A stretch of 64,000 nucleotides of DNA from a virus (IMGVR_UViG_2703718819_000006), one strand, 5' to 3'; numbered from the stretch's first letter, positions 3,019-64,000 are shown. The notes: generated from the letters alone by a model not told the origin. A program made the numbers and translations.

Positions 3019-3038
3019 TGGTAAGTATATACTTACCA
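3019..3038. promoter_or_regulatory. family-2 palindrome TGGTAAGTATATACTTACCA upstream of major tail gene
   Basis: Perfect 20-bp palindrome in intergenic gap 3007-3044. Confidence 0.5.
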
Positions 3039-3044
3039 ATTGAG

Positions 3045-5150: not shown

Positions 5151-5584
5151 TAATCACCGCCTTGTGCTTTCAGGATGCCTTCAATCATCTCGACGATTCC
5201 TTTCGCTTTAACACCCACCTGATTACCAATCACACGTAGACCAGCAATGCCTTCATTGTCTGCAATTGACTCCAACTCTTCTCGTGTGAAAGTCTGGATC
5301 TGTTTGGCCGGTTTATCTGGCGTCCCACGTTTCATTGGCACAATGTCAGGCGCTGCTGGCTCGGTGATCATGTCTACAGTCAATTCACCACGGTCACTGT
5401 ATGCGGCTGACGGAGAAACATTTTTGCCCTCTACTGTTGACGCTCGCATTGAGGCACAAATCCTCTGCTGATCAATAAAAGGCAACTCAGCTACGGACAC
5501 CCCATTCTCGAACTGAACGCCACACAGTACTCCCGAATAACCGGAAAATTGCGGTTCTAATAAAACAATTTTTGCTGGTTTCAT
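5150..5584 (-). CDS. hypothetical structural protein
   Basis: 144 aa ORF in morphogenesis operon. Confidence 0.4.
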   Translation of the reverse strand: MKPAKIVLLEPQFSGYSGVLCGVQFENGVSVAELPFIDQQRICASMRASTVEGKNVSPSAAYSDRGELTVDMITEPAAPDIVPMKRGTPDKPAKQIQTFTREELESIADNEGIAGLRVIGNQVGVKAKGIVEMIEGILKAQGGD

Positions 5585-6564: not shown

Positions 6565-6596
6565 AAAAGGGTGGGCGTATAGCCCACCCTTTAACA
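6565..6596 (-). terminator. hairpin AAAGGGTGGGC..GCCCACCCTTT followed by T-run on minus strand
   Basis: Inverted repeat seen directly downstream of capsid gene stop (6624). Confidence 0.5.
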
Positions 6597-6597
6597 T

Positions 6598-6613
6598 AGA
6601 TAATTACCTATCT
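6598..6613. promoter_or_regulatory. family-2 palindrome AGATAATTACCTATCT
   Basis: Palindrome in gap upstream of 5630..6550 start. Confidence 0.4.
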
Positions 6614-6623
6614 ACTACACTGA

Positions 6624-8436: not shown

Positions 8437-10011
8437 TCACTCGTTCTCTTGAGTAGATGAGTCCCCATTCCCTCGGGGTTGATCTTGCCCGCTTTCTTGG
8501 GCTGCACCACGATCATAAGTAAGTACTGACTTATTTTCAAGGGTATTTAGATCATTTTTTGGAGGAAAATTCAAGAGATCTTTATCAAATTCCTTTTTCA
8601 TCGCCTCAGTAATGTTCGGGAAAATCTTCTCAATAAGCATTTCCATCTGGTGACGACGTACAGAGTCCGGTGCCTGAAGTAATGACAGTTTCTCGGCAAC
8701 AGCAAATTCATCAGTAAGGCCACGAATATCGAAACTTTCTGGATACGCAATTAAAGAGTGGTCTTCGTCCAGATCTACCCCCATCCATTTCGCAACCAGT
8801 AGCATGATTTGGCGTTCAGCCCTTTCCAGACGCTCTGCTTTTGTGACAAGCAAGCTATTTACACGCTGGAAGTCATACATTTTTGCGGCACCAGATGAAT
8901 TATCGATTCCCTGTGCGTTGTCCTGCTTCGTTCGCTCACCAGCTACACCAACTGAATGGTAGATTTCGTTAATCACCGTCTTAATCGTAGTGATGATCAT
9001 CTGAGCTTGTTTCGGGTCTGGTGACAGATAAAACGGCTGGTTTCCACCTTCAGAATCGTAGGTGAAGACTCGCTTTGTGCCCATTTCAAGCACTTTAGTG
9101 TGGTTTTCATCACCAGGTAAAAGCGACTGTACCGGTATAGCCAACTGGCTAAATGTCTGATCCTGAATAATGGCATCAAGGTTTGACAGATAGTTTGCAA
9201 CCGCACGATCAAGATAAGCGATATCATCGATCAACGATGGGCTGAAATACGGTGATTCACTTTCTCCAATACAATCAACAGGAAACACAGGAACTACGCC
9301 GAGATTATGCTCACCGCTATCCTCTAAAATAACTTTTGCCTGACGGCGACCTGCTCCACCAGCGCCCTTCTTCACTTCCTCACGGAACAGATACCACTCG
9401 TTTTGTGTCCACAGACGATAACGTTGGTATTCCTGACCTGTAGAAGTAAAAGGATCTGCGTCATCACGAGCGACTTCCACAATTAACGCCCACAACATAT
9501 TCCCGTCGTCGTCCCATGCCACATCCAGCATTTGCTGAGGTGAAATCCAGTAGGCGTAGGCGCGAGCATCTTTCTTTTTCTCGTCAGCTACTGACTCAAC
9601 ATCACCACTCATCGTGCTATCGACAACAACCCATATGCGACCGTAAATAGACGACTGCAAATCAATAGCGGCCATAAATGAGTCAATAGAGGCATTCTGG
9701 CGAGTCGCACGTTTCCAGAAATTGCGGATCTGCTCTGGTGCCTCTTCGATATTTCTATGAATGTCTTCTTTAAAGAGATATTTGTTGATGAGGTTTACCA
9801 CCTCACGAGTGTGGTTGAAACGATAAGCACGCTCAACTCGCTCCTTAAACTCCTGATCTCCCTCTTTAAAGTAACGAAAGATATTGTCTGTAAACCAACC
9901 ACGCCCGCCAGCGTAAGTGCTGGCGAGGAAGTCCCAATGTTCTTTTTTCTTTTCGTATTCCGGGTGGCGTCGCGCCACCAGATCCTTAATTTGTTTGTCG
10001 TTCAATTCCAT
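8437..10011 (-). CDS. portal protein
   Basis: 524 aa ORF immediately downstream of terminase large subunit; size and position typical. Confidence 0.6.
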   Translation of the reverse strand: MELNDKQIKDLVARRHPEYEKKKEHWDFLASTYAGGRGWFTDNIFRYFKEGDQEFKERVERAYRFNHTREVVNLINKYLFKEDIHRNIEEAPEQIRNFWKRATRQNASIDSFMAAIDLQSSIYGRIWVVVDSTMSGDVESVADEKKKDARAYAYWISPQQMLDVAWDDDGNMLWALIVEVARDDADPFTSTGQEYQRYRLWTQNEWYLFREEVKKGAGGAGRRQAKVILEDSGEHNLGVVPVFPVDCIGESESPYFSPSLIDDIAYLDRAVANYLSNLDAIIQDQTFSQLAIPVQSLLPGDENHTKVLEMGTKRVFTYDSEGGNQPFYLSPDPKQAQMIITTIKTVINEIYHSVGVAGERTKQDNAQGIDNSSGAAKMYDFQRVNSLLVTKAERLERAERQIMLLVAKWMGVDLDEDHSLIAYPESFDIRGLTDEFAVAEKLSLLQAPDSVRRHQMEMLIEKIFPNITEAMKKEFDKDLLNFPPKNDLNTLENKSVLTYDRGAAQESGQDQPRGNGDSSTQENE

Positions 10012-10022
10012 TTGAATAACCT

Positions 10023-10042
10023 TAGATAATTACTTACCTATC
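10023..10042. promoter_or_regulatory. family-2 palindrome TAGATAATTACTTACCTATC
   Basis: Overlaps TerL stop, 12 bp upstream of portal start. Confidence 0.4.
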
Positions 10043-12022: not shown

Positions 12023-12119
12023 GTCTGGCATGTCTTACGAAGCCTGCTTCCGTATATATATTTAATAAGTTACTTATTATTTATATACAGAAGCAGGTCT
12101 TTAAATAAGCTCCCAGACC
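12023..12119. repeat. nested long palindrome (core 12043-12098, arms CCTGCTTCCGTATATA / TATATACAGAAGCAGG around AT-rich palindromic loop; outer GGTCTGG/CCAGACC)
   Basis: Seen in sequence; near-identical copy at 42072-42130. Confidence 0.7.
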
Positions 12120-14877: not shown

Positions 14878-15542
14878 ACCAGAGCCTCACCAGCGTTCTC
14901 CATTTCATTACCGGTGTTAATAGCCTGCTCTTTGATGATGTTTTTTATGGTTTCTGCAACACGATCTGACGCATCGAAAGTTACTTTGAAGCGCATGGTC
15001 TGATGTTCCGCACCCACACGTTCGGTTTTCTCTCGTTTGTCGGTATCGACAGGCTCATCACTACCACGAGACAACGCCTCCAGTGCTTCAAGGTCGATTG
15101 CCGCCTCTTTTGCTAAAACCATCGAGATTTCGTCGTCATACGGAGCGATTTCAGACAGTTGATAGTCAAGTTCTGACTGAATTTCTTCAATGAAGCGTTG
15201 CAATGCGATTTGGTCGTCTTCACCGTATCGCTCGTTGTCCACCAGTGACATCTGTTTAGCTACGACATCGCTAATTTTGCCCACAGAAAGCACCGGAACC
15301 GTTGAAATTCCTTGCTCAATAGCAGCACGCCAGCGATGTTCACCTCCGAGAATTTCAAAAAATCCACCTTCAAGTTCACGAGCCAAAATTGGCTTAAAAA
15401 AGCCCAATTTTTCGATAGAACCTTTCAGTTTTTCAAAATTCTGCGCACCAACCGAATTGGTGTTCCAGGTATTCGGGCGAAGGTTGGCAACATCAACCTG
15501 CAAAATCGTGATTTTTACATCCATTTTATTGCTACAATCCAC
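14844..15542 (-). CDS. ParB-like (ParB/Srx fold) domain protein
   Basis: 232 aa; N-terminal ParB-type box (EILGGEHRWRAAIEQG). Confidence 0.55.
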   Translation of the reverse strand: MDCSNKMDVKITILQVDVANLRPNTWNTNSVGAQNFEKLKGSIEKLGFFKPILARELEGGFFEILGGEHRWRAAIEQGISTVPVLSVGKISDVVAKQMSLVDNERYGEDDQIALQRFIEEIQSELDYQLSEIAPYDDEISMVLAKEAAIDLEALEALSRGSDEPVDTDKREKTERVGAEHQTMRFKVTFDASDRVAETIKNIIKEQAINTGNEMENAGEALVWLVDYYKERM

Positions 15543-15543
15543 T

Positions 15544-15561
15544 AAGTAATTACTTACTTAT
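15544..15561. promoter_or_regulatory. family-2 palindrome TAAGTAATTACTTACTTA in divergent gap
   Basis: Perfect palindrome between ParB-like operon start (15542) and helicase start (15607). Confidence 0.5.
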
Positions 15562-15606
15562 TATAATAGCCAAATAACATACAAAAGGCACTAAGGAAAG
15601 AGGTTT

Positions 15607-17473: not shown

Positions 17474-17938
17474 ATGAAGTCTCCCATACTGTTCACTTTC
17501 TGTTCTAAAACTATCATGAAATACTCGCTTCTCCCTCTACTAACGTTACCAGTGTTGATGCTTACCGCGTGCCAATCACGCCCAATATCAATCCATGACG
17601 CCAAACCAGCACCGCAGGCCAAAGTGTTCAAGTATCAAAGCGCAGCGCCAGCTACGTTGGTGGTAATGAGAGACACAGGTTTTGTAGGAGCTGGATGTGA
17701 TGCTTCCATTTTCATCAACGGCGAAACTGTCGCAAAACTGGCTACAGGCGAAAAAGCGACTTTCCATTTAAATGCCGGAGAATTAATTGTGGGTGCATCT
17801 CTTGAAGGTGCAGGTTTATGTGCTCTAAACCCCGCTCGTCAAGAGCGGGAAACGACTCTGAAGAATGGAGACACAAAAGCGTTCAGGGTGTTCACCAGCA
17901 ATTCTGGTGACATCGACATTCTGCCAACAACTCTGTGA
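17474..17938 (+). CDS. putative lipoprotein
   Basis: 154 aa; hydrophobic N-terminus ending in lipobox-like LTAC; SD GGGAGA upstream. Confidence 0.45.
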   Translation: MKSPILFTFCSKTIMKYSLLPLLTLPVLMLTACQSRPISIHDAKPAPQAKVFKYQSAAPATLVVMRDTGFVGAGCDASIFINGETVAKLATGEKATFHLNAGELIVGASLEGAGLCALNPARQERETTLKNGDTKAFRVFTSNSGDIDILPTTL

Positions 17939-17942
17939 TGAC

Positions 17943-18467
17943 ATGACAACCAAAGATATTACCTACGGTATCCAAGCTGAACTCTGGCCGCGAGATTACA
18001 CTAACGTTGAAAAACTACTGATGTTCTGGCGCAGAGAACAAATTCCTGTAAGGGTCACTCTCGAAGATGGCCAGGCGTTTTGCATGTACGTTTATGGCCT
18101 CATGCCATCTCGTAACAAAGTTGACCTTTGCCCAGCCCCTTTTGACAAAGAAAATCGCATAAGGCTCCCACTTGAACGCATTAGTACAATTGAATCAGGT
18201 GTGGTTGACAGTATCGCTCACGATTTCAAAGGTCGACTAACAGTTCACCCTGATTATGTCGATAATCGGCCATCACGCCGCGATTTTTTTGCAATTTGCA
18301 ACCAAGCCTACAAAGCAAACAAATCTATAAGGGTGTACATGGCGGATGGCCGTGAAATTGAGGGGGTGTCAGCAGGCGCAGATGCTTGTCAGGTTACACT
18401 ACGTGTCGAGAACGGTAGAAAAATAGTTGTTTTGTTCGATTGGGTTGAACGAATTTTGCCTTTTTGA
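17943..18467 (+). CDS. hypothetical protein (start at MTTKD, downstream of ORF-track start)
   Basis: ORF-track start 17865 overlaps previous gene; ATG at 17943 follows its stop. Confidence 0.4.
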   Translation: MTTKDITYGIQAELWPRDYTNVEKLLMFWRREQIPVRVTLEDGQAFCMYVYGLMPSRNKVDLCPAPFDKENRIRLPLERISTIESGVVDSIAHDFKGRLTVHPDYVDNRPSRRDFFAICNQAYKANKSIRVYMADGREIEGVSAGADACQVTLRVENGRKIVVLFDWVERILPF

Positions 18468-22156: not shown

Positions 22157-22552
22157 TTAAGCGAATACGCTTTCAGGAATTAAGGTGTCAGCAGGAATGC
22201 CGGAGGTAATCCGCAGGCCGTACTGGCCAATCCAGGTAGTGTTGGTATTCAGGCTGGAGGCGAATACGGTGTTAACCATATTCATCATGGTTTCAAACAC
22301 CTCTTCATCAACCTGGCGGAAGTAGTTCTCGATTTTCAGCAGCAGCGGGTCAGTTGCATCGAAAATAGACTGGTATTGAGTCGCGTACTCGCCGCCGGAG
22401 GCCTCACCTTTACGCACGATCGTACTGGCCTGGACTTCGGCGCCAGTTTCGGTGTTGTACGTAACAACGGTGATTTTTGCCACATTCTTACCTTCGGCGG
22501 TTTCAGAGGCATAGTAAACATCAACTGTCAGTTTTTCGCGTTTAACGGTCAT
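22157..22552 (-). CDS. hypothetical protein (start at MTVKRE with SD GGAG)
   Basis: ORF-track start 22618 would include family-2 palindrome and terminator; internal ATG at 22552 has proper SD. Confidence 0.45.
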   Translation of the reverse strand: MTVKREKLTVDVYYASETAEGKNVAKITVVTYNTETGAEVQASTIVRKGEASGGEYATQYQSIFDATDPLLLKIENYFRQVDEEVFETMMNMVNTVFASSLNTNTTWIGQYGLRITSGIPADTLIPESVFA

Positions 22553-22595
22553 TTCACTCTCCGTAGTGTTTTGGTTATTTTTATATTCTATGATC

Positions 22596-22611
22596 GTAAG
22601 TATGTACTTAC
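22596..22611. promoter_or_regulatory. family-2 palindrome GTAAGTATGTACTTAC
   Basis: Upstream of start at 22552. Confidence 0.4.
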
Positions 22612-22642
22612 AATACAAAAAAGCCCCGTAAGGATGGCGGGG
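22612..22642 (-). terminator. hairpin GCCCCGCCATCCTTACGGGGC + T-run on minus strand
   Basis: Seen in sequence downstream of 22679 stop. Confidence 0.55.
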
Positions 22643-29598: not shown

Positions 29599-29988
29599 CT
29601 ACATCACAGGACAATCATCAAACTCGCCACTTCTTGCGTCGTTGATAATGTGAGTGATCACACCAAACACGGCATTGCTGCCCGTGCATCCATCGTCATC
29701 CTTTGGCAATGCTTCCTTCTTACCAGTTCTTAAATCCTCCAGATGCTGACGTGGATACTTCCGGTATCTTTTTACGCGATATTCCCCATCCAGAGCGCAT
29801 ACAAGCAGAGAACCATCAACCGGGGTAAGTGAGGAATCGACCACCAGCAATGCGCCCTGCAATATTCCCTCACGATGATGGCTGTCAGCCGCTCTCATGA
29901 AGTAGGTCGCTGAAGGATGTCTAATTATCTGCTGATCAAGAGAAATACGGCTCTCAGCATAATCCGCCGCAGGAGAAGGGAAGCCCAT
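29599..29988 (-). CDS. UmuD'-like peptidase S24 family protein (pre-truncated form, HumD-like)
   Basis: 129 aa; begins GFPSPAADY... which aligns to the start of mature UmuD' (after the Cys-Gly self-cleavage site) as I recall E. coli UmuD; Ser (ADSH) and Lys (RVKR) positions retained. Confidence 0.7.
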   Translation of the reverse strand: MGFPSPAADYAESRISLDQQIIRHPSATYFMRAADSHHREGILQGALLVVDSSLTPVDGSLLVCALDGEYRVKRYRKYPRQHLEDLRTGKKEALPKDDDGCTGSNAVFGVITHIINDARSGEFDDCPVM

Positions 29989-30107
29989 AGCGTTTTGCCC
30001 TCAATACTGTTCATTTATACAGTATACATGAAAGAAGCTCACTAAGTGCAACTGATCGGTACATAGCACCAGACAAATGAACGTTATTTTCTCGAACAAG
30101 AAAAGGT

Positions 30108-30144
30108 AGAAAACAAATTGTTTAAGGCCACAACTAGTGGCCTT
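30108..30144. promoter_or_regulatory. family-1 motif AGAAAACAAATTGTTT fused to hairpin AAGGCCACAACTAGTGGCCTT
   Basis: Upstream of 29988 start; same composite element at 34379-34416. Confidence 0.5.
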
Positions 30145-30160
30145 AATGGAGAAGGGATGC

Positions 30161-30685
30161 TTATTGGCTATGGCTAAAAATCAAATGAGACACTTCATTT
30201 GGTTGTAGCTCGTCAAGATCCGGGGCCACAAAACCTTTTCCGAAAGACTTCACAAGTGATTCACCAGCCGCATCATTGTCACCTATTACGCGAAAGTCAT
30301 ACGGCAGCATTGCCAGTTGACGACGTAATCCTGCTGAGAAAGTCGAACCTAACAGCGCCCACGAATTTCCGCCCGCGTTGTGCACTGCTGCACTTTTAAA
30401 AATCGACTCAGTTATCCATATCGGTCCATCTTTTAAAGGAAGATAGGTTCCCCATAGTAGCTGTCTGCCGTGCGCTCGTGTGAAATACCGGGCCATCTTC
30501 GGATTGCTATGCTGCTTAGGAGCGCCTGGTCTGTATGTCTGATACCCGGCCAACATCCCATCAAACCTGTATAGAGGGAATGTAACAACTCCTTCGCTTT
30601 CATCGATCCACTGTCTATATGGATGCACATCATGGCGGTAGTTACGAGTTAGCAAATGAGCTTCCAGCTTTCCAAATTTAGTCAT
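30161..30685 (-). CDS. hypothetical protein, possible Toprim-like motif (VIGDNDAAGE); start at MTKFGK
   Basis: Internal ATG at 30685 avoids overlap with upstream gene. Confidence 0.35.
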   Translation of the reverse strand: MTKFGKLEAHLLTRNYRHDVHPYRQWIDESEGVVTFPLYRFDGMLAGYQTYRPGAPKQHSNPKMARYFTRAHGRQLLWGTYLPLKDGPIWITESIFKSAAVHNAGGNSWALLGSTFSAGLRRQLAMLPYDFRVIGDNDAAGESLVKSFGKGFVAPDLDELQPNEVSHLIFSHSQ

Positions 30686-35531: not shown

Positions 35532-35575
35532 GTGTTTTTCTCTTATCGTTTAGTAACTACATTCTTACACAAATT

Positions 35576-35595
35576 AGGTAAGTATTTACCTATCA
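35576..35595. promoter_or_regulatory. family-2 palindrome TAGGTAAGTATTTACCTATC
   Basis: In gap upstream of 35531 start. Confidence 0.45.
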
Positions 35596-40158: not shown

Positions 40159-40559
40159 TCGAACTGTCCTTGTTGTTTTTCTCCTTCACTAAAGGCCGTG
40201 TACTTTTCGCTTCGCGTGAAGAACCAGAGGTAACAATCGCCCCCACGTTCGCAACAACTGACGCTTGCTTATCTAAACGTTCATTCAGCAACCGAACGGC
40301 AGTCTCTAGTTCATCAAGACGTGACAGAACACGACCGCTAAATAATTCGGCCAAAATTTGACGTAGTGAACGAGGACGTTTAGTTGCAGAAGTGAAATAG
40401 GTTTGACGTGCCATGTGGACTCCATCCAGTGTCAGAAAGAGTTGCGGCTGGCGATTGCCAGCCGCCTTTCTCGTTCCATCCTGGAACTGTGTCTTACCGA
40501 CACATTGTCATCCTGACGCCGATAAGATACATGATTTAAAATGATAGGTAAACACTTAC

Positions 40560-41153
40560 TTACTGCTTGTTGTAAACAAAACCAATATCTTTCTTGTGAG
40601 GCATATCTGCTGCGGAAAAAGCTGCGATCTTCGCGAGTCGATCACATATTTCATTTTCACGATGCCCGGCGTGACCTTTAACCCACTTCCAGCGAACATT
40701 ATGTCGACTTGCAGCCTCATCCAGACGCTTCCACAGATCAACATTCTTTACCGGTTTTTTGTCAGAAGTCACCCATCCATTGCGTTTCCACCATTTCATC
40801 CACTGTGTCATGCCGTTTTTCAGATACTGGCTATCAGAGTGCAAAATAACGTTGCATGGATATTTCAAACGCTCCAGCCCGATAAGTGCCCCCATCATCT
40901 CCATGCGGTTATTGGTGGTGCTATGAAAACCATCTGAGAACTCGCGTTCCTCACCACGATACTGGAGAACGATACCGTAACCGCCCGGGCCACCCGGATT
41001 TTTAAGGCAAGAGCCATCACTAAAGATTTTCACGGTTTTAAGCTGGGGATTGAACTCTACGACAGGCGTTGTGGGATTGGTGCGGGGGGAATTTTTGTTT
41101 TTGGCTTTTTTGCGAGTTTTTGCTTGCGATCGAGCTGGTGTCTTCGTCGTCAT
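40560..41153 (-). CDS. rnhA: ribonuclease HI with basic N-terminal extension
   Basis: Start at ATG 41153 (SD AGGAG); core [17 protein letters not shown]...TNNRMEMM...HSDSQY...[15 protein letters not shown] matches RNase HI catalytic motifs. Confidence 0.8.
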
Positions 41154-41735
41154 ATAAACTCCTGAATCAAGCGCCGCGCCGATTTTTCCTCGCGCGTGCG
41201 CACACGCGTGCGTGTTAATAATTATTAAAATAAACAAATTACTTCCCAGAACAGGTTTTTATAAACCTGAACTGAACGAACGAAGTGAGTGAAGTTCACC
41301 TCGAACGAAGTGAGAGGTTGTCTTTTCAGGTAATACTCTCCCAGGGAGGTGAGTATAAAAATCTCTCACCAACCTGGTCGTTTCATAACCTGAAAAGTTA
41401 TGGTCTAAGTCTACTGCCAGCTTAGACTTGGGAAGTTATGGATGACAGCACCCCAGAACCGAGATCTTCCCACACTTTATGAAGGGGAGTACTGGATTCA
41501 ACCTCTCGAAACACCCCAGACTCGACAATCATAAAGTGACCCTTGTCTCCGCTCACTTTGGTTCCCCCTTCCCCGACACCTAAACGGCACCAGTTCTACG
41601 CTGGTAGTGAGCTTTTTTAAACCTGACGCCAGTGACGCTTACCCCCACCCATCAGGTCGAGTCTCCAGTCTACGACTGGAAACTATCAGATCTTAGCACT
41701 TACAATTCACTTTATGAATAGTTTGTACTTATCTA

Positions 41736-41990
41736 TCATTGTGATTGATTATTTTCTCTACCATGTAGTTGAACATTCAAGGCAAACACCTCATTGATCA
41801 ACTCACCTAAAAGCTGTTCAACAAGTTCGCGATGCTCGCCAAGATGCAAGCACTTAATTGCCCATTCGTACAAGTTGAAAGCCTGCTCACGATCTTTCAT
41901 CATTTCACGAGCCTGGGCCAGAAAATCGCTCTCTACGAGCGCAACGACATTAGTCGGGTATGACATGTTGGTTTCCTTAAAGTGGTTCAT
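41736..41990 (-). CDS. hypothetical protein
   Basis: 84 aa. Confidence 0.35.
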   Translation of the reverse strand: MNHFKETNMSYPTNVVALVESDFLAQAREMMKDREQAFNLYEWAIKCLHLGEHRELVEQLLGELINEVFALNVQLHGRENNQSQ

Positions 41991-42071: not shown

Positions 42072-42130
42072 AGCCTGCTTCCGTATATTAATAATTAATA
42101 TGTAGTTATTTATATATACAGAAGCAGGCT
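42072..42130. repeat. long palindrome AGCCTGCTTCCGTATAT..ATATACAGAAGCAGGCT (copy of 12043-12098)
   Basis: Seen in sequence; same arm sequence and same single C/T asymmetry. Confidence 0.7.
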
Positions 42131-42151: not shown

Positions 42152-42745
42152 CTAAGCAACCTTCTTTGATGGTCTTTTTTTCCTGATCACATTCGCAGGA
42201 TCATACCCTCCCAGACTTTTCATGACGTCCAAAGGGATCTTGCTTATAGAGTGCCCAGCGTCCTGACAGAATCCTCGAAAAACAACGAGCATACTGCCAC
42301 CTGGGTTGATGTTTACTTCTACCTGACCCAGATTGACGTCAGGCTCGACAAACGCTACGCGGCCACCAGACAGAATAATCGTCTCATTCGCACACTCTGT
42401 TGCACGCTCATACCACTTTGTATCTAGGGATTGAGGAATTAGCATCACTGTTGTAACTCCGCGAGCCTGCTCACGTATAGCAGCATCAATCCAGGGGGAG
42501 ATTTTGGAGTAGGGTGGATTGAGGAAGGCAATTGTACCTGGCTGTCCCCATTCAGATTTCAAAGCATCACGCTCAATGCCTATGAAATTAGGCAGCTTTG
42601 CGTTGTCCTTGTTGCAGGCAACGTCAACATCAAATGTCACTCCAAGATAACGTTGAATGGCAGAAAACAGCCAATCAGGTGTTCTCCAGAGGTCACGAAG
42701 AGAGTTGTCGCGCTTTCGCTGTTTGATTTTTTCGGCTGCAATCAT
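42152..42745 (-). CDS. phage-type N6-adenine DNA methyltransferase (Dam-like)
   Basis: 197 aa; WRTPDWLF...LNPPYS motifs. Confidence 0.7.
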   Translation of the reverse strand: MIAAEKIKQRKRDNSLRDLWRTPDWLFSAIQRYLGVTFDVDVACNKDNAKLPNFIGIERDALKSEWGQPGTIAFLNPPYSKISPWIDAAIREQARGVTTVMLIPQSLDTKWYERATECANETIILSGGRVAFVEPDVNLGQVEVNINPGGSMLVVFRGFCQDAGHSISKIPLDVMKSLGGYDPANVIRKKRPSKKVA

Positions 42746-42756
42746 CTTCTTTCTCG

Positions 42757-42776
42757 ATAGGTAAGTGATTACCTAT
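42757..42776. promoter_or_regulatory. family-2 palindrome ATAGGTAAGTGATTACCTAT
   Basis: Just upstream of Dam-like start. Confidence 0.45.
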
Positions 42777-42811
42777 TTTTGCATTTGATTTTATGTATGG
42801 CAATGAAATAA

Positions 42812-42860
42812 AACGCGCCAGAAATGCAAACGAGAAGCTCTCTGGCGCGTTTTTGTGGTG
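42812..42860. terminator. hairpin GCGCCAGA..TCTGGCGC with T-runs on both strands
   Basis: Seen downstream of 42929 stop. Confidence 0.45.
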
Positions 42861-46476: not shown

Positions 46477-47580
46477 TCACACCGCCACTGGAACCTTGAT
46501 CCACGGTAGAGGGGCATAGCCAAGAATAAGAATCTCGTCCCATTTGAAATCATCCAGCTCAGACCATTCATTAGGGAATATAACGACCGGATCTGAATGC
46601 TCTGGAGCCTGTCGTTGCATTAGCTCACACACACCTTCCATGTGGTTGTTGTACAAATGCACGTCAAAGCCAAAATGCACAAATGCACCGGCCATGTGAC
46701 CCGTAATCTTCGCGAGAAAATGAGTGAGAATGCCATAGCCAGCAATATTGAATGGCATACCAACAAAAGTGTCTACGCTACGCTGTACGAGGCAGGAGTT
46801 GAGGATGCGTTTGGGGATTCCAAGTTCATCCAGTTCAGTTTCAGTAACACTGCCGTCCATCTCCAGATCGTATAGCATCTTGGTGTAGATAGACTCATAA
46901 CCGAGGCGACTGTGTTGAAGACCAATGTCAGTTGCCATCGTTAAACGGGTTTCAAAATCCAGTTCACGACTCCACAAAGAGAAGACAAAGTGGCAAGGTG
47001 GCAGTTTCATATCCTCAAGCTCGCCTACGTTCCATGCGTTAAGCATGATGCGACGATCGGTAGGGTTCGTGCGCAGTGTATCGACAATACGCTGTAGCTG
47101 ATCGATTTCACGGGACAGCACTACGCGATCTTCACTGATACCCAGGTATCCCTCGACTTTGTACCCGCGTTCACGGAAAGTAGCGATCTTGCTCAGATAT
47201 TCACTATGGCTCACGATGCGGGTATCTTCCCATCGACGCCACTGCTTACCGTAAACCGGCCCCAAATCGCCATTCTCATCGGCCCATGCATCCCAAATCT
47301 TAACGCCGTTATCCTTGAGAAATTGGATGTTGCCCGTGCCTTTCAGATACCACTCAAGTTCGACAAGCAGTGGCTTAAGATTTACCGCCTTTCCAGAAAT
47401 AAGCGGCACAGTCCCACCAGTAAGCATGTAGTAAGAGGGAACGTAGCAGGTGCTTAAAGTACCAGTGCCTGTGCGATCATCAGCCTGCACGCCGCTTTTA
47501 AGCACCGTCTCAATAACTTTTGCATACGATGCGTTTGTTACCTGACCGTTCGTATGCTCACGATTCAAAAGGAGTGACAC
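46477..47580 (-). CDS. thyA: thymidylate synthase (ThyA-type) with two insertions relative to host enzyme; start likely GTG 47580
   Basis: DRTGTGT, catalytic LPPCH, VGMPFNIAGY motifs; ORF-track start (47607) lies inside family-2 palindrome, GTG at 47580 has GAGG SD. Confidence 0.8.
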   Translation of the reverse strand: MSLLLNREHTNGQVTNASYAKVIETVLKSGVQADDRTGTGTLSTCYVPSYYMLTGGTVPLISGKAVNLKPLLVELEWYLKGTGNIQFLKDNGVKIWDAWADENGDLGPVYGKQWRRWEDTRIVSHSEYLSKIATFRERGYKVEGYLGISEDRVVLSREIDQLQRIVDTLRTNPTDRRIMLNAWNVGELEDMKLPPCHFVFSLWSRELDFETRLTMATDIGLQHSRLGYESIYTKMLYDLEMDGSVTETELDELGIPKRILNSCLVQRSVDTFVGMPFNIAGYGILTHFLAKITGHMAGAFVHFGFDVHLYNNHMEGVCELMQRQAPEHSDPVVIFPNEWSELDDFKWDEILILGYAPLPWIKVPVAV

Positions 47581-47595
47581 AAAAACCTCACAAAG

Positions 47596-47611
47596 ATAAG
47601 TAACCACTTAT
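47596..47611. promoter_or_regulatory. family-2 palindrome ATAAGTAACCACTTAT
   Basis: Upstream of TS start. Confidence 0.4.
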
Positions 47612-47659
47612 TCATTAAGTGAGTTTACATTTATTGAGGGAACAAGGCCAGATAGATAA

Positions 47660-47690: not shown

Positions 47691-47751
47691 ATAGTTGTTT
47701 CAGAAATTTAACGCGCCAGCGCAATATACACAGATAGATAACTACCTACAA

Positions 47752-48621
47752 TTATTTTTTGATCATTCCGTACATTGCTGAGGCTTTAGCTTGCTCAACA
47801 AAGGAGGATAAATCGACATCACTATAGGTTGGAGACTTCAGAATCTTTCCATCGGAAATTCGAAAACCGATCATCTTATCGGTGCCATCAGCATGGCGAA
47901 ATCCCAGGTCAGAAGAGTCGTATTTGCAGTTGGCCACAGCATGGCGACGCTCTTCGGCATCTGCAGGCCATAATTTTGTCATGTTGGACCGATGAATTTC
48001 GCCAACCAGCTCGACGACATTGATACCGAGAAAATCAGCCAGTCGATAAGTCATCATGCACGCCACATAGATTTTGTTCATTACACGGCGCAGTTCCTGA
48101 ATCAGCTCAGAATCCTTAACAGTCTTCTTCTCAAGTTTATCTGCCAGCTCTTCGAGCATACATGACGCCTCACGAGCTTCCTGAAATGGCATTGCCATAT
48201 CATCGAAAACAGTGTTACCAGGCACAAAAATTGTCTGCATAAAGCGATCAATGCTCTGTTCCTGCGTGTAATAAGTCATGCCGGTAGAAATACCACCTTT
48301 GATGGCGACCATCGTACCAACACCAACGTATAAAAAGTCGGCCATTGCATCCAGCAGTTGCTCAATATCCCCATTCATTGCGGCTGGAATACCTTCCACT
48401 ACAGCTTCTTCATGAATCAGGCTTGCACGGAGACGAAGCAGCTCTGGTGTCGGCATAACGCGTCTCGGATGCTGGAAGAGTTCATGAAACTGATCGACCA
48501 TCTTGTAAATACTTTCAGTGGCTACACCATGGCCTTCATGCAATTCATATGGTTCTGGCTTAAATCCAATGAGTCGATCGGTGGCAAGTTTCAGGTGGTC
48601 AGTCAGTTTGGTAAAGTTCAT
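47752..48621 (-). CDS. MazG-like (all-alpha NTP pyrophosphohydrolase) protein, two MazG-like halves
   Basis: 289 aa; EExxE..D-type helices in both halves; context in nucleotide-metabolism block. Confidence 0.5.
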   Translation of the reverse strand: MNFTKLTDHLKLATDRLIGFKPEPYELHEGHGVATESIYKMVDQFHELFQHPRRVMPTPELLRLRASLIHEEAVVEGIPAAMNGDIEQLLDAMADFLYVGVGTMVAIKGGISTGMTYYTQEQSIDRFMQTIFVPGNTVFDDMAMPFQEAREASCMLEELADKLEKKTVKDSELIQELRRVMNKIYVACMMTYRLADFLGINVVELVGEIHRSNMTKLWPADAEERRHAVANCKYDSSDLGFRHADGTDKMIGFRISDGKILKSPTYSDVDLSSFVEQAKASAMYGMIKK

Positions 48622-52263: not shown

Positions 52264-52310
52264 GTATCACCAAATAAAGAGGGCCACTAAATATAGTGGC
52301 TCATGTTAAT

Positions 52311-52330
52311 AGATAAGCACTTACCTATCA
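52311..52330. promoter_or_regulatory. family-2 palindrome TAGATAAGCACTTACCTATC
   Basis: Upstream of nrdA start. Confidence 0.45.
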
Positions 52331-56880: not shown

Positions 56881-56992
56881 GTGTTTTTCCTTTGTGGTTA
56901 TTTTGATACAAATTTTAAGAGCAATGAGAAGGTAAACAACTATGCATAACGGTATGTTAGGAATGAAACGAGCGCATTAATATACAAAATTT

Positions 56993-57012
56993 ATAAGTAA
57001 GTATATACCTAT
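56993..57012. promoter_or_regulatory. family-2 palindrome-like ATAAGTAAGTATATACCTAT
   Basis: Upstream of sbcD start. Confidence 0.35.
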
Positions 57013-57134
57013 TTGTTGTGACGCAACTTTGCTTGTCTGTATGACTAAAAATAAGACAGGATCACTGTAGAACGCTATGAGAGCTATTTTGAGGGGGCGT
57101 AGATTCTATCTACGCCAATATACGATCTGGAGGG

Positions 57135-60790: not shown

Positions 60791-60829
60791 GATAGGTAGA
60801 TACTAACTTATATAAATTTTACTGTAAAC

Positions 60830-63764: not shown

Positions 63765-64000
63765 TTATTTCACTGTAATGAAAGGAGTGTTAGCCCCTTG
63801 AGTCATGTACTGCGGTAACTGGCCATTCCATTTATTGATGGCTTCCAGCTCCATAACGTTCGGGTTTTGACGCAGAGCTTCACCGCGCAGACGAATGGCG
63901 TCGGCTTCTGCTTGCGCACGAGCACGGATAGCATCAGCTTCACCATTAGCCTGTTCACGTAGCATATTCGCCTCAGCTTTACGCTGTTCAACTTCCTGCT
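63765..64000 (-). CDS. C-terminal part of a longer protein, possibly SPFH/band-7-like (5' end beyond window)
   Basis: Ala/Glu/Arg-rich C-terminus (EADAIRARAQAEADAIRLRGEA...NPNV) resembles HflC/K-type tails; frame probably continues past 64000. Confidence 0.25.
   Translation of the reverse strand, partial: QEVEQRKAEANMLREQANGEADAIRARAQAEADAIRLRGEALRQNPNVMELEAINKWNGQLPQYMTQGANTPFITVK

What the first reader, a model, noticed from the sequence alone, without database searches (positions are those of the whole stretch)
3019..3038. Second palindrome family (GGTAAGTA..TACTTACC type) upstream of structural and replication genes
Near-perfect AT-rich palindromes at about 3019, 6598, 10023, 15544, 22596, 35576, 40546, 42757, 47596, 52311 and 56993, each in a short gap upstream of a gene start (major tail, decoration protein, portal, the ParB-operon/helicase divergent gap, Dam-like MTase, TS, nrdA, sbcD). 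This set is distinct from family 1 and may mark a different temporal class (middle/late) or a second regulator. It also helped correct two start codons (22552 and 47580).
Basis: seen in the sequence. Interest (0 to 1): 0.5.

Follow-up and report, generated by a model that had tools for sequence, protein, structure and literature searches.

The report
Dispersed operator palindromes of SSU5-like phage-plasmid
About fifteen copies of one 20-22 bp palindrome lie between the lytic genes of this SSU5-like phage-plasmid, and they most likely are binding sites where a phage repressor keeps some two dozen ordinary promoters off until the element is induced.

Summary
All 11 listed positions carry one motif, consensus (A/G)ATAGGTAAGT|ACTTACCTAT(C/T), with TA every 4 bp. 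The window is an SSU5-like phage-plasmid, 97.5% identical to Escherichia phage CMS-2020a.

Relatives carry 23-26 sites each, about 90% of them intergenic and in the same gaps, even in a relative with 40-60% protein identity. The two half-sites do not covary, so the sequence is conserved and not a hairpin. That points to double-stranded DNA bound by a symmetric dimer, not to terminators or RNA stems.

Sigma-70-like promoters facing the downstream genes overlap the sites at variable offsets, for example TTGAAA-17-TATGAT at 8540-8512. In published LF82/Cyrano RNA-seq, genes just downstream of sites are silent in LB and are the most induced inside macrophages. The motif core also sits at about +1 of the conserved promoter of the element's Xre-type repressor gene, in all 36 upstream variants examined.

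Best reading: a dispersed operator network for the lysogeny repressor, which works like phage P1 C1 but is not homologous to it. An activator site remains possible. This is a new member of a known kind, of moderate interest.

The parts
3020..3041 (.). Family-2 site (23.4 bits). The perfect 18-bp palindrome GGTAAGTATATACTTACC is at 3020-3037. It lies between the tail-completion gene and the major tail (tube) gene.
   Evidence: Promoter-like hexamers TTGAAT-18-TATACT (3053-3024) and TTACCA-17-TAGAAT (3024-2996) overlap it on the minus strand. The orthologous Cyrano gene CYRAN_12 rises 4.3 log2 in macrophages and steps up 2.5 log2 over the upstream gene.
6595..6616 (.). Family-2 site (22.2 bits) just after the major capsid gene stop and upstream of the Ig-like decoration gene. 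On the minus strand it is followed by a terminator hairpin at 6589-6568.
   Evidence: In Cyrano, expression drops 3 log2 across this gap, so this copy does not act as an effective promoter.
8514..8535 (.). Family-2 site (23.1 bits) inside the 3' end of the portal gene. It fills the spacer of a near-consensus minus-strand promoter, TTGAAA-17-TATGAT (8540-8512), upstream of the CYRAN_4-like gene and the capsid gene.
   Evidence: (best promoter hit in the first 20 kb, 10 of 12). It is conserved in Cyrano, SSU5 and pJN2-26. CYRAN_4 and CYRAN_5 are induced 2.7 and 4.0 log2.
10021..10042 (.). Family-2 site (22.7 bits) that overlaps the terminase large-subunit stop codon and lies 9 nt before the portal start. 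There is no room for a promoter that could serve the portal gene.
   Evidence: It is conserved even in a relative with 40-60% protein identity (L037:13984).
15541..15562 (.). Family-2 site (23.8 bits) in the divergent gap between the ParB-like operon, which runs on into the terminase and structural genes, and the UvsW-like helicase operon.
   Evidence: The orthologues are Cyrano 105106 and pJN2-26 34774.
22595..22616 (.). Weak family-2 site (15.9 bits; GTAAGTACATACTTAC) directly after an intrinsic terminator and overlapped by TTGTAA-17-TAGAAT (22613-22585). It lies upstream of the ORF that starts at 22552.
   Evidence: The orthologues are SSU5 93164 and pJN2-26 28030.
35573..35594 (.). Family-2 site (24.9 bits) at the stop of the DUF4942 methylase-like gene, upstream of the Ead/Ea22-like gene. 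TGTAAGAAT follows it.
40543..40564 (.). Family-2 site (23.0 bits) at the stop of the RNase H gene. Its right arm supplies the -35 element of TTTACC-17-TATCTT (40552-40524).
41716..41737 (.).
   Evidence: CYRAN_81 is induced 3.4 log2.
42756..42777 (.). Family-2 site (25.0 bits; exact match to ATAGGTAANNNNTTACCTAT) 10 nt before the start of the Dam-like methylase gene.
47591..47612 (.). Family-2 site (20.6 bits) 10 nt before the thymidylate synthase (ThyX) GTG start at 47580.
   Evidence: ThyX is induced 2.2 log2 while the upstream MazG-like gene does not change.
47733..47754 (.). TTGTAG-17-TATATT (47751-47723) overlaps it.
52308..52329 (.). Family-2 site (25.3 bits) after the RuvC-like gene and upstream of nrdA. 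On the minus strand a terminator-like hairpin follows it.
   Evidence: The hairpin is kept in SSU5 and pJN2-26. No step up in expression is seen here.
56992..57013 (.). Family-2 site (25.0 bits) between the ASCH-domain gene and sbcD.
60791..60812 (.). It abuts the start of a 59-aa ORF, the CYRAN_60 orthologue.
   Evidence: CYRAN_60 to CYRAN_62 have no reads in LB and are the most induced genes of the element (5.3 log2).

Best explanation
The family-2 palindromes are double-stranded DNA operators for a symmetric, dimeric DNA-binding regulator encoded by the phage-plasmid. They overlap ordinary sigma-70 promoters in the -35 element, the spacer, the -10 element or the start site. About 15 of these promoters lie in this window and 23-26 in a whole genome. 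They are scattered in front of capsid, tail, lysis, nucleotide-metabolism and recombination genes.

In the plasmid (lysogenic) state the regulator occupies the sites and keeps the promoters shut. When it is inactivated by stress or the SOS response, the promoters fire together, each at its own strength. Copies that have no promoter beside them, such as the terminase/portal gap, may act as roadblocks or as extra anchoring sites.

The most likely binder is the Xre-type HTH repressor encoded next to the integrase, the CYRAN_45 family. Its gene lies outside this window but is present at 98% identity in the window's closest relative. Its own promoter carries the motif core at about +1, which suggests negative autoregulation.

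Shown here:
- the motif, its enrichment and its conserved positions;
- conservation of sequence rather than of base pairing;
- directional promoter-like sequences around the sites;
- induction of the downstream genes in published RNA-seq;
- the conserved motif core at the repressor promoter.

Inferred: binding, repression as opposed to activation, and the identity of the protein.
For: 1. Enrichment and conservation. Sites of at least 17 bits number 15 in the window, 23 in Cyrano, 26 in SSU5 and 23 in pJN2-26, against 0-0.25 in shuffles, and about 90% are intergenic. They occupy the same gaps in E. coli, Salmonella and Klebsiella members and in a relative with 40-60% protein identity. Among 50,697 phage records, several copies per genome occur only in SSU5-like records.

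2. Sequence, not structure. In 64 distinct sites the half-sites vary independently. There are 448 Watson-Crick pairs against 453 +/- 7 when the right halves are permuted, p=0.80. At pair 4/17 the counts are A-T 15, A-C 14, G-T 11 and G-C 14.

3. Promoters. The best sigma-70-like score within 45 bp is higher in the direction of the genes than in reverse (7.98 against 6.38, p=3.5e-6; random positions 4.24). The palindrome centre lies at offsets from -43.5 to +15.5, and these offsets are kept between orthologues. Near-consensus examples are TTGAAA-17-TATGAT (window 8540-8512), TTGAAA-17-TATCAT (Cyrano 57445) and TTTACA-17-TAGTAT (window 60828-60800).

4. Expression (PMC9928086, S1 table). Genes after these near-consensus promoters have zero or background reads in LB (CYRAN_56 and CYRAN_60 at 2.32, the floor value). 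In macrophages at 6 h they rise 4.4 and 5.3 log2. Genes downstream of family-2 sites average 1.84 log2 against 0.95 (p=0.0015), and against 1.04 for other genes with an upstream gap (p=0.018). Of the 15 most induced genes, 11 are a first or following gene of a family-2 unit, and 2 more flank the immunity region.

5. Link to the switch. GGTAAG(C/T)ACTTACC follows a conserved TTTACA-N16-TAATAT promoter in front of the repressor gene. This holds in all 36 distinct upstream variants from 71 loci whose proteins are 56-100% identical, and the putative recognition helix IGYKNxNxLSLIKxGxIPLP is invariant. Cyrano 42550-42850 is the only 250-bp stretch of that genome with 4 GGTAAG/CTTACC hexamers, against 0.13 expected. 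SSU5, isolated as a lytic phage, lacks the repressor gene but keeps the sites.
Against: - No binding or transcription-start data exist.
- The RNA-seq comes from bacteria inside macrophages, with two replicates. It is not a controlled induction and shows no virion production.
- The promoter score correlates only weakly with induction (rho 0.36, p=0.09).
- The AT-rich motif itself creates promoter-like hexamers, which inflates the scores. The excess of forward over reverse is the only clean signal.
- Several strong sites show no step up in expression (capsid/Ig-like gap, nrdA, sbcD, tail genes M/L). Two are followed by terminators, and some leave no room for a promoter.
- The site at the repressor promoter has only the 14-bp core (7.8-14.1 bits).
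- Sites are not clearly better conserved than their largely coding flanks (0.92 against 0.89, p=0.10).
- CYRAN_34 and the tRNA region lie downstream of sites yet are expressed in lysogeny.
- The repressor gene is absent from SSU5. Loss of the repressor fits that absence, but it cannot be told apart from the binder being a different protein.
Confidence: 0.58

Rival explanations
1. The palindrome is the recognition box of activator-dependent middle or late promoters. A phage activator made after induction binds it and recruits host RNA polymerase to promoters that lack a good -35 element, as Lpa does at phage P1 late promoters.
For: - Most sites have no TTGACA-like -35 element at a fixed place.
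- The extended palindrome ends in TAT(C/T)AT, which resembles a -10 element, in 41 of 72 sites.
- The centre AAGT|ACTT resembles the P1 late-promoter -22 box AAGTTACTT, as annotated in NC_005856.
- The downstream genes are off in LB and on under stress, which fits activation as well as derepression.
- The targets include virion and lysis genes.
Against: - There is no fixed geometry between the palindrome and any -10 element. The offsets range from -43.5 to +15.5.
- The TAT(C/T)AT motif is as frequent on the reverse strand (36 of 72), so it is part of the palindrome.
- Two conserved sites lie in the 17-bp spacer of 10-of-12 consensus promoters, which should need no activator, yet those promoters are silent in LB.
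- No Lpa homologue was found (tblastn E of 1 or more).
- A copy at about +1 of the repressor promoter is a repressing position.
Confidence: 0.2
2. The sites are protein roadblocks or clamp-loading sites, not classical operators. One version is 'stoperators' that stop read-through transcription between genes. Another is parS/OB-like sites for the ParB-like proteins or for the small RHH protein that follows ParA, linking partition to silencing.
For: - Many sites lie in co-directional gaps of 26-90 bp within operons, often abutting the upstream stop codon, and some leave no room for a promoter.
- Transcription from the strongly expressed ParA-CYRAN_30 unit falls 6 log2 before CYRAN_31, where a site lies 11 nt from the start.
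- One site lies in front of the ParB-like operon.
- In established knowledge, RK2 KorB has 12 dispersed palindromic sites and N15 has dispersed centromeres.
Against: - The ParB-like genes are silent in lysogeny (2.3-3.5 log2), so their products cannot hold the silent state.
- The ParA promoter carries a family-1 palindrome, not a family-2 one.
- L5 stoperators are asymmetric and depend on orientation, whereas these sites are symmetric.
- The directional promoter signal and the induction that starts at the sites are not explained by roadblocks alone.
Confidence: 0.12
3. The palindromes act as RNA: small hairpins in 5' or 3' untranslated regions that terminate, stabilise, process or translationally control the messages. 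One version has them bound by the FljA-like protein encoded in the window.
For: - Every copy can form a stem of 6-11 bp with a 4-nt loop, with z-scores from -1.5 to -4.3 against shuffles.
- Several copies lie just upstream of ribosome-binding sites.
- A conserved FljA-family gene (PF03614, E=2.5e-84) lies at 17865-18467. In Salmonella, FljA is reported to bind fliC mRNA (own knowledge; PMC2652032 cites this).
Against: - The half-sites do not covary, and A-C mismatches are as common as pairs at variable positions.
- The stems are weak (-4.3 to -9.1 kcal/mol) with no U tract.
- Perfect two-fold sequence symmetry is not needed for an RNA site.
- The sites occur on either side of real terminators.
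- No Rfam family matches.
- The fliC leader has no good match to the motif (best 6.4 bits).
Confidence: 0.05

Closest known systems
Phage P1 C1 repressor and its dispersed operators (P1 is also a phage-plasmid)
   Same: - Many operators are scattered over a plasmid-prophage genome, each at its own sigma-70 promoter.
- They control unlinked lytic functions directly, with no single early operon.
- Operators also lie at the repressor gene itself. The P1 record annotates Oc1a-e, Olpa and OpmgT.
   Different: - The P1 operator is an asymmetric 17-mer. I recall the consensus as ATTGCTCTAATAAATTT, and the P1 record annotates 17-bp C1 sites. Here the site is a 20-22 bp palindrome of unrelated sequence.
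- No C1 homologue was found (tblastn E above 6).
- The candidate binder is a 128-aa Xre-type HTH protein.
Phage P1 Lpa-dependent late promoters (-22 box plus -10 element)
   Same: - A short palindrome takes the place of a -35 element before many late genes of a phage-plasmid.
- The box AAGTTACTT resembles the family-2 centre AAGTACTT.
   Different: - The P1 box is 9 bp and lies at a fixed distance from the -10 element. Here the site is 20-22 bp at variable distance.
- No Lpa homologue was found.
Mycobacteriophage L5 gp71 'stoperators'
   Same: About two dozen repressor sites lie in short intergenic gaps throughout the early and late operons of a temperate phage (own knowledge of Brown et al. 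1997).
   Different: - L5 sites are asymmetric 13-mers that act in one orientation on elongating polymerase.
- Here the sites are symmetric, and most overlap promoter-like sequences.
Lambdoid CI/Cro operators
   Same: - The sites are pseudo-palindromic and fit an HTH dimer.
- One lies at the repressor's own promoter, in a divergent repressor/cro-like gene arrangement.
   Different: Lambdoid operators are clustered at two control regions, and the late genes depend on antitermination. Here the same site is repeated about 25 times across the genome.
KorB OB sites of plasmid RK2
   Same: A dozen identical palindromes are dispersed over a plasmid and coordinate a global regulon (own knowledge).
   Different: KorB is a ParB-family protein that is expressed in the maintained state. 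The ParB-like genes here are silent in lysogeny.

Membership tests
Intrinsic (Rho-independent) terminators | G+C-rich stem followed by a U tract | tested here: not met
   The stems are A/U-rich, -4.3 to -9.1 kcal/mol, with no T run. Real terminators lie next to some sites, on either side.
Structured RNA element or hairpin family | Base pairing is maintained by compensatory change between the two arms | tested here: not met
   448 Watson-Crick pairs against 453 +/- 7 in permutations, p=0.80. No Rfam hit.
Operator of a dimeric HTH repressor | Two-fold symmetric site whose half-sites are conserved independently | tested here: met
   The PWM is symmetric over 20-22 bp, and perfect palindromes occur in pJN2-26.
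Operator of a dimeric HTH repressor | Overlap with core promoter elements or the transcription start | tested here: inconclusive
   Promoters are predicted only. 61% of sites have a forward promoter above the random 90th percentile, and forward exceeds reverse with p=3.5e-6. No transcription-start data exist.
Operator of a dimeric HTH repressor | Target genes are silent in lysogeny and derepressed on induction | tested here: met
   Re-analysis of published RNA-seq: targets are at the floor value in LB, and induction is 1.84 against 0.95 log2, p=0.0015. The data are indirect and include no repressor mutant.
Operator of a dimeric HTH repressor | A site at the repressor gene's own promoter (autoregulation) | tested here: met
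   The core GGTAAG(C/T)ACTTACC lies at about +1 of TTTACA-N16-TAATAT in 36 of 36 upstream variants.
Operator of a dimeric HTH repressor | Demonstrated binding by the protein | not testable with these tools
   This needs EMSA, footprinting or ChIP.
P1 C1 operator network | C1-family repressor and the asymmetric 17-bp operator consensus | tested here: not met
   tblastn of C1 against four genomes gives E above 6. The motif is palindromic and unrelated in sequence.
P1-type late promoters | Lpa homologue and a fixed distance from the -22 box to the -10 element | tested here: not met
   tblastn of Lpa gives E of 1 or more. No positional peak of -10 elements appears beyond the palindrome's own ends.
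L5-type stoperators | Asymmetric site with one orientation relative to transcription | tested here: not met
   The sites are symmetric, and both strands score alike.

The most novel reading that the evidence does not exclude
SSU5-like phage-plasmids may run their whole lytic programme as a flat, single-tier regulon. In that reading one small Xre-type repressor directly gates about 25 separate sigma-70 promoters, including individual promoters for the capsid, tail tube, fibre and lysis genes, with no early-middle-late cascade. Copies of the same palindrome that have no promoter beside them would serve as roadblocks inside operons. That would be a regulatory architecture distinct from both the lambdoid and the P1 schemes. 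It would also give a simple handle on a family that carries antibiotic-resistance genes in Enterobacteriaceae: one protein and one 20-bp site.
Probability: 0.25. Interest if true: 0.6.

Novelty: new member of a known kind. Interest (0 to 1): 0.45.

Why it matters
SSU5/pHCM2-like phage-plasmids are common in E. coli, Salmonella and Klebsiella. According to the papers found they can carry resistance genes, yet my literature searches found nothing on how their lysis-lysogeny control works.

A single conserved 20-22 bp motif that marks about 25 inducible transcription units, and that also lies at the repressor gene's promoter, does three things:
- It defines the lytic regulon.
- It predicts the operator and the repressor.
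- It explains why the capsid and tail-tube genes are switched on individually in the LF82 data.

It also gives a practical annotation aid for operon boundaries and start codons, and a target for experiments on induction or curing.

Tried and rejected
- **FljA-like protein as binder.** Its gene (window 17865-18467; PF03614) is conserved and lies in the operon divergent from the ParB/structural operon. However, the E. coli fliC leader, the known FljA target region, has no convincing motif match (6.4 bits). It is more likely a host-directed function.
- **Homology to P1 Lpa or C1.** None was found.
- **Fixed -10 or -35 geometry around the sites.** None was found beyond the palindrome's own TAT(C/T)AT ends.
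- **Hairpin covariation.** Absent.
- **Phylogenetic footprint against flanks.** Not significant (0.92 against 0.89, p=0.10). The flanks are mostly coding.
- **Other phages that share the motif.** An unrelated metagenomic group with 41% G+C has single AGTAAGTAAGTACTTACTTACT palindromes next to a terminase small-subunit gene. It has no multi-copy pattern and no shared regulator.
- **Close relatives of the FljA-like gene.** The search returned only SSU5-like contigs and was uninformative.
- **Sequence searches of small conserved proteins.** The CYRAN_117-like 92-aa protein, the CYRAN_123-like 88-aa protein, CYRAN_37 and CYRAN_34 were searched against PDB, Pfam and NCBIfam. These gave nothing, or only sub-threshold winged-helix hints.
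- **Papers that could not be read.** These were the 2026 bioRxiv paper on phage-plasmid heteroresistance, the FljA paper of Yamamoto and Kutsukake, and the P1 genome paper.
- **Host transcription-factor consensus sequences recalled from memory** (Fur, TyrR, PdhR/ExuR, LexA, IHF). None fits the whole site. This was not tested further.

Full report
**What the window is.** The first 20 kb are 97.5% identical to Escherichia phage CMS-2020a (CP053388), 94-96% to PhiR41_1 and Cyrano, and about 80% to Salmonella phage SSU5 and to Klebsiella phage-plasmids such as pJN2-26. The window is therefore part of an SSU5/pHCM2-like phage-plasmid of about 108 kb. I used the expert re-annotation of Cyrano (OV696614) as the gene map. 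Most genes of the window lie on the minus strand.

**The observation.**
- The octamer GGTAAGTA occurs 7 times against 0.8 expected.
- ATAGGTAANNNNTTACCTAT with up to 3 mismatches occurs 11 times against 0.12 expected.
- TARGTANNTACYTA with up to 1 mismatch occurs 18 times against 0.15 expected.
- An expectation-maximisation PWM shows a 20-22 bp two-fold symmetric site, (A/G)ATAGGTAAGT|ACTTACCTAT(C/T). Its most informative positions are TA steps every 4 bp.
- At 17 bits or more there are 15 sites in the window, 23 in Cyrano, 26 in SSU5 and 23 in pJN2-26, against 0-0.25 in shuffles that keep local composition. About 90% of them lie in the roughly 10% of sequence that is non-coding.

Only 3020-3037 is a perfect palindrome in this window, whereas the Klebsiella relatives hold perfect 22-mers such as AATAGGTAAGTACTTACCTATT.

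**Conservation.** The sites occupy the same gaps in all members:
- terminase/portal, inside the portal 3' end, capsid/Ig-like, tail completion/tail tube;
- tail genes M/L, J/fibre, fibre/holin;
- before CYRAN_31, CYRAN_34 and the tRNAs;
- UvsY/gp32, RecA/CYRAN_56, CYRAN_59/CYRAN_60;
- before sbcD, nrdA, thyX (two sites) and dam;
- RNase H/CYRAN_83, DUF4942/Ead, and the UvsW/ParB divergent gap.

A metagenomic relative whose proteins are only 40-60% identical keeps sites at the terminase/portal, tail-tube and M/L gaps. There the same core has altered outer bases, TTAAGTAAGTACTTACTTAA. Among 50,697 phage records, only the 12 SSU5-like ones hold several copies.

**DNA site or hairpin.** In 64 distinct sites, deviations in the two halves are independent. 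There are 448 Watson-Crick pairs against 453 +/- 7 when the right halves are permuted among sites. At the most variable pair the counts are A-T 15, A-C 14, G-T 11 and G-C 14. The possible RNA stems are weak (-4.3 to -9.1 kcal/mol), A/U-rich and without a U tract. Rfam finds nothing in the window. Genuine terminators lie beside some sites, before them at 22650-22622 and after them at 6589-6568 and near 52300. What is conserved is therefore a symmetric sequence, the signature of double-stranded DNA read by a dimer.

**Relation to promoters.** No -10 or -35 element lies at a fixed distance from the palindrome. The TAT(C/T)AT at its ends is equally common on both strands and is part of the palindrome. 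Sigma-70-like promoters are nevertheless concentrated around the sites, and they point toward the downstream genes. The best score within 45 bp is 7.98 forward against 6.38 reverse (p=3.5e-6) and 4.24 at random positions. Of the sites, 61% forward and 35% reverse exceed the random 90th percentile. The palindrome centre falls anywhere from -43.5 to +15.5 relative to the predicted start, mostly from -37 to -8, and the offset is kept between orthologues.

Three examples stand out:
- Window 8540-8512 is TTGAAA-17-TATGAT, with the palindrome filling the spacer. It is the best promoter hit of the first 20 kb.
- The RecA/CYRAN_56 site is TTGAAA-17-TATCAT. In this window that site would fall at the very end, near 64000.
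- Window 60828-60800 is TTTACA-17-TAGTAT, with the palindrome over the -10 element and the start.

Variable placement over core promoters is what repressor operators show. Activator sites need fixed geometry.

**Expression.** The LF82 study (PMC9928086) gives log2 expression for each Cyrano gene in LB, in medium, and inside macrophages at 1 and 6 h. I re-analysed that table.
- Genes directly downstream of family-2 sites are induced more at macrophage 6 h than in medium at 6 h, compared with other same-strand genes (1.84 against 0.95 log2, Mann-Whitney p=0.0015).
- The difference also holds against other genes that have an upstream gap of at least 40 nt (1.04 log2, p=0.018).
- Genes downstream of family-1 palindromes are not induced more (1.15 log2, p=0.11).
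- Of the 15 most induced genes, six are first genes after a site (CYRAN_60, 56, 12, 81, 22 and 4). Five are the next genes of those units (61, 62, 13, 14 and 5). Two flank the immunity region (46 and 44).
- CYRAN_56 and CYRAN_60, behind near-consensus promoters, are at the floor value in LB and rise 4.4 and 5.3 log2.
- Neighbours without a site stay low (portal, head-completion genes, tail genes K-I, RecA, the exonuclease). Induction therefore starts at individual sites and is not read-through.

Not every site behaves this way. Expression falls after the capsid gene and before nrdA, where terminators follow the site. sbcD and tail gene L also show no step. The promoter score predicts induction only weakly (rho 0.36, p=0.09).

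**Link to the switch.** Cyrano's putative repressor CYRAN_45 is a 128-aa protein with a sub-threshold HTH_19 match (E=7.8e-4) and a phrog_8 'transcriptional regulator' match. It is expressed about 10-fold above background in lysogeny. It lies next to the integrase, divergent from a small cro-like gene, and outside this window. Its upstream region holds the motif core GGTAAGTGCTTACC and further half-sites. It is the only 250-bp stretch of the genome with four GGTAAG/CTTACC hexamers, against 0.13 expected. The same core is present in pJN2-26 and in CMS-2020a, the window's closest relative.

I examined 71 IMG/VR loci whose repressors are 56-100% identical. Every one of the 36 distinct upstream sequences keeps the block TTTACA-N16-TAATAT followed at once by [GA][GA]TAAG[CT]ACTTACC. 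The core therefore sits at about +1 to +14 of the gene's own promoter, while the sequences around the block have diverged. The putative recognition helix IGYKNxNxLSLIKxGxIPLP is invariant. Homologues of this repressor occur in the phage collection only in SSU5-like records, in 9 of 12. SSU5 itself, isolated as a lytic phage, lacks the repressor and integrase module but keeps the sites. This makes the Xre-type repressor the leading candidate for the binder, possibly together with its cro-like partner. The assignment is an inference from arrangement, not a demonstration.

**Mechanism proposed.** A dimeric repressor occupies about 25 palindromic operators that overlap sigma-70 promoters in front of virion, lysis, nucleotide and recombination genes. 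A weaker core-only copy at its own promoter provides autoregulation. Inactivation under SOS-like stress releases all the promoters at once, each with its own strength, and local terminators bound each unit. This fits the observation that UmuD-like CYRAN_98, integrase and CYRAN_46 rise in the same samples. Sites without a promoter, such as the terminase/portal gap, may be roadblocks or cooperative anchors. I put this explanation at about 0.58, and the identity of the binder at about 0.4.

**Rivals.**
- An activator box of the P1 Lpa type (0.2) is suggested by the frequent lack of a -35 element and by the resemblance of the centre AAGT|ACTT to the P1 -22 box AAGTTACTT. The variable geometry, the consensus promoters that are silent in LB, the +1 copy at the repressor promoter and the absence of an Lpa homologue argue against it.
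- Roadblock or ParB/KorB-like sites (0.12) fit the copies that lack a promoter. However, the ParB-like genes are silent in lysogeny, and the ParA promoter carries family 1 instead.
- RNA hairpins (0.05) are disfavoured by the lack of covariation.

**Comparison with known systems and novelty.** Functionally the closest system is the dispersed C1 operator network of phage P1, another phage-plasmid. L5 stoperators, lambdoid operators and KorB OB sites share single features. Membership in the P1 families fails, because there is no C1 or Lpa homologue and the site sequence and symmetry differ. Literature searches found no description of this motif, or of SSU5-family gene regulation. I rate it a new member of a known kind. 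It is useful and well supported as a motif, but not surprising in principle.

Noticed in passing
window 11968, 21336, 22100, 23003, 23487, 26123, 26174, 30112, 38925, 39654, 49874, 63687: Family-1 palindrome AACAANTTGTT: 12 copies against 0.2 expected. In Cyrano each copy is preceded by a -10-like (A)TAAGAA(A) and lies 15-40 nt before a start codon. The copies include the ParA, terminase small-subunit, DnaB and nrdB promoters. The palindrome therefore sits at about the transcription start, as an operator or a 5' hairpin of a second regulon.
   Followed up: partly
window 17865-18467 (+): A full-length FljA-family gene ('repressor of phase-1 flagellin', PF03614, E=2.5e-84) is conserved in all SSU5-like members, in the UvsW helicase operon. 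It may silence host flagellin as a lysogenic-conversion function. The E. coli fliC leader has no family-2 match.
   Followed up: partly
window 12043-12097 and 42072-42130: Two copies of a long hairpin with shared arms, CCTGCTTCCGTATAT...ATATACAGAAGCAGG, and an A/T-only loop. One lies just upstream of the terminase small-subunit gene and one after the Dam-like methylase gene. Their function is unknown: a terminator, a packaging site or an origin element are possibilities. Their loops give weak family-2 PWM hits.
   Followed up: no
window 6568-6589 (minus strand); Cyrano 5465-5490: A strong intrinsic terminator lies right after the major capsid gene. Cyrano expression falls 3 log2 across it, so capsid mRNA is made in excess over the downstream head genes.
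   Followed up: partly
L001 (Cyrano) 40268-40822, minus strand: CYRAN_43, a 184-aa protein of unknown function, is by far the most expressed gene of the element in lysogeny, about 720-fold above background in the LF82 data. It lies next to the integrase/repressor module, outside this window, and is absent from SSU5.
   Followed up: no
L001 (Cyrano) 29975-30334: The gene after ParA, annotated as a RelE/ParE toxin, gives a weak match to a ribbon-helix-helix regulator family (aCcr1, E=2e-4). It sits where a type Ib centromere-binding protein would be. The ParA promoter holds a family-1 palindrome.
   Followed up: no
L012, L014, L026, L046, L049, L057, L072, L080, L083 (IMG/VR contigs, 41% G+C): An unrelated group of metagenomic phage contigs carries a single perfect palindrome, AGTAAGTAAGTACTTACTTACT, in the divergent gap beside a terminase small-subunit-like gene. 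The core is the same as in family 2, but the context differs.
   Followed up: partly
L136 (phage P1) 2522-2545 and 6476-6494: The annotated P1 late-promoter -22 boxes (AAGTTACTT in LPhot, ATGTGACTT in LPpac) resemble the centre of the family-2 palindrome (AAGT|ACTT), although no Lpa homologue is present in SSU5-like genomes.
   Followed up: partly
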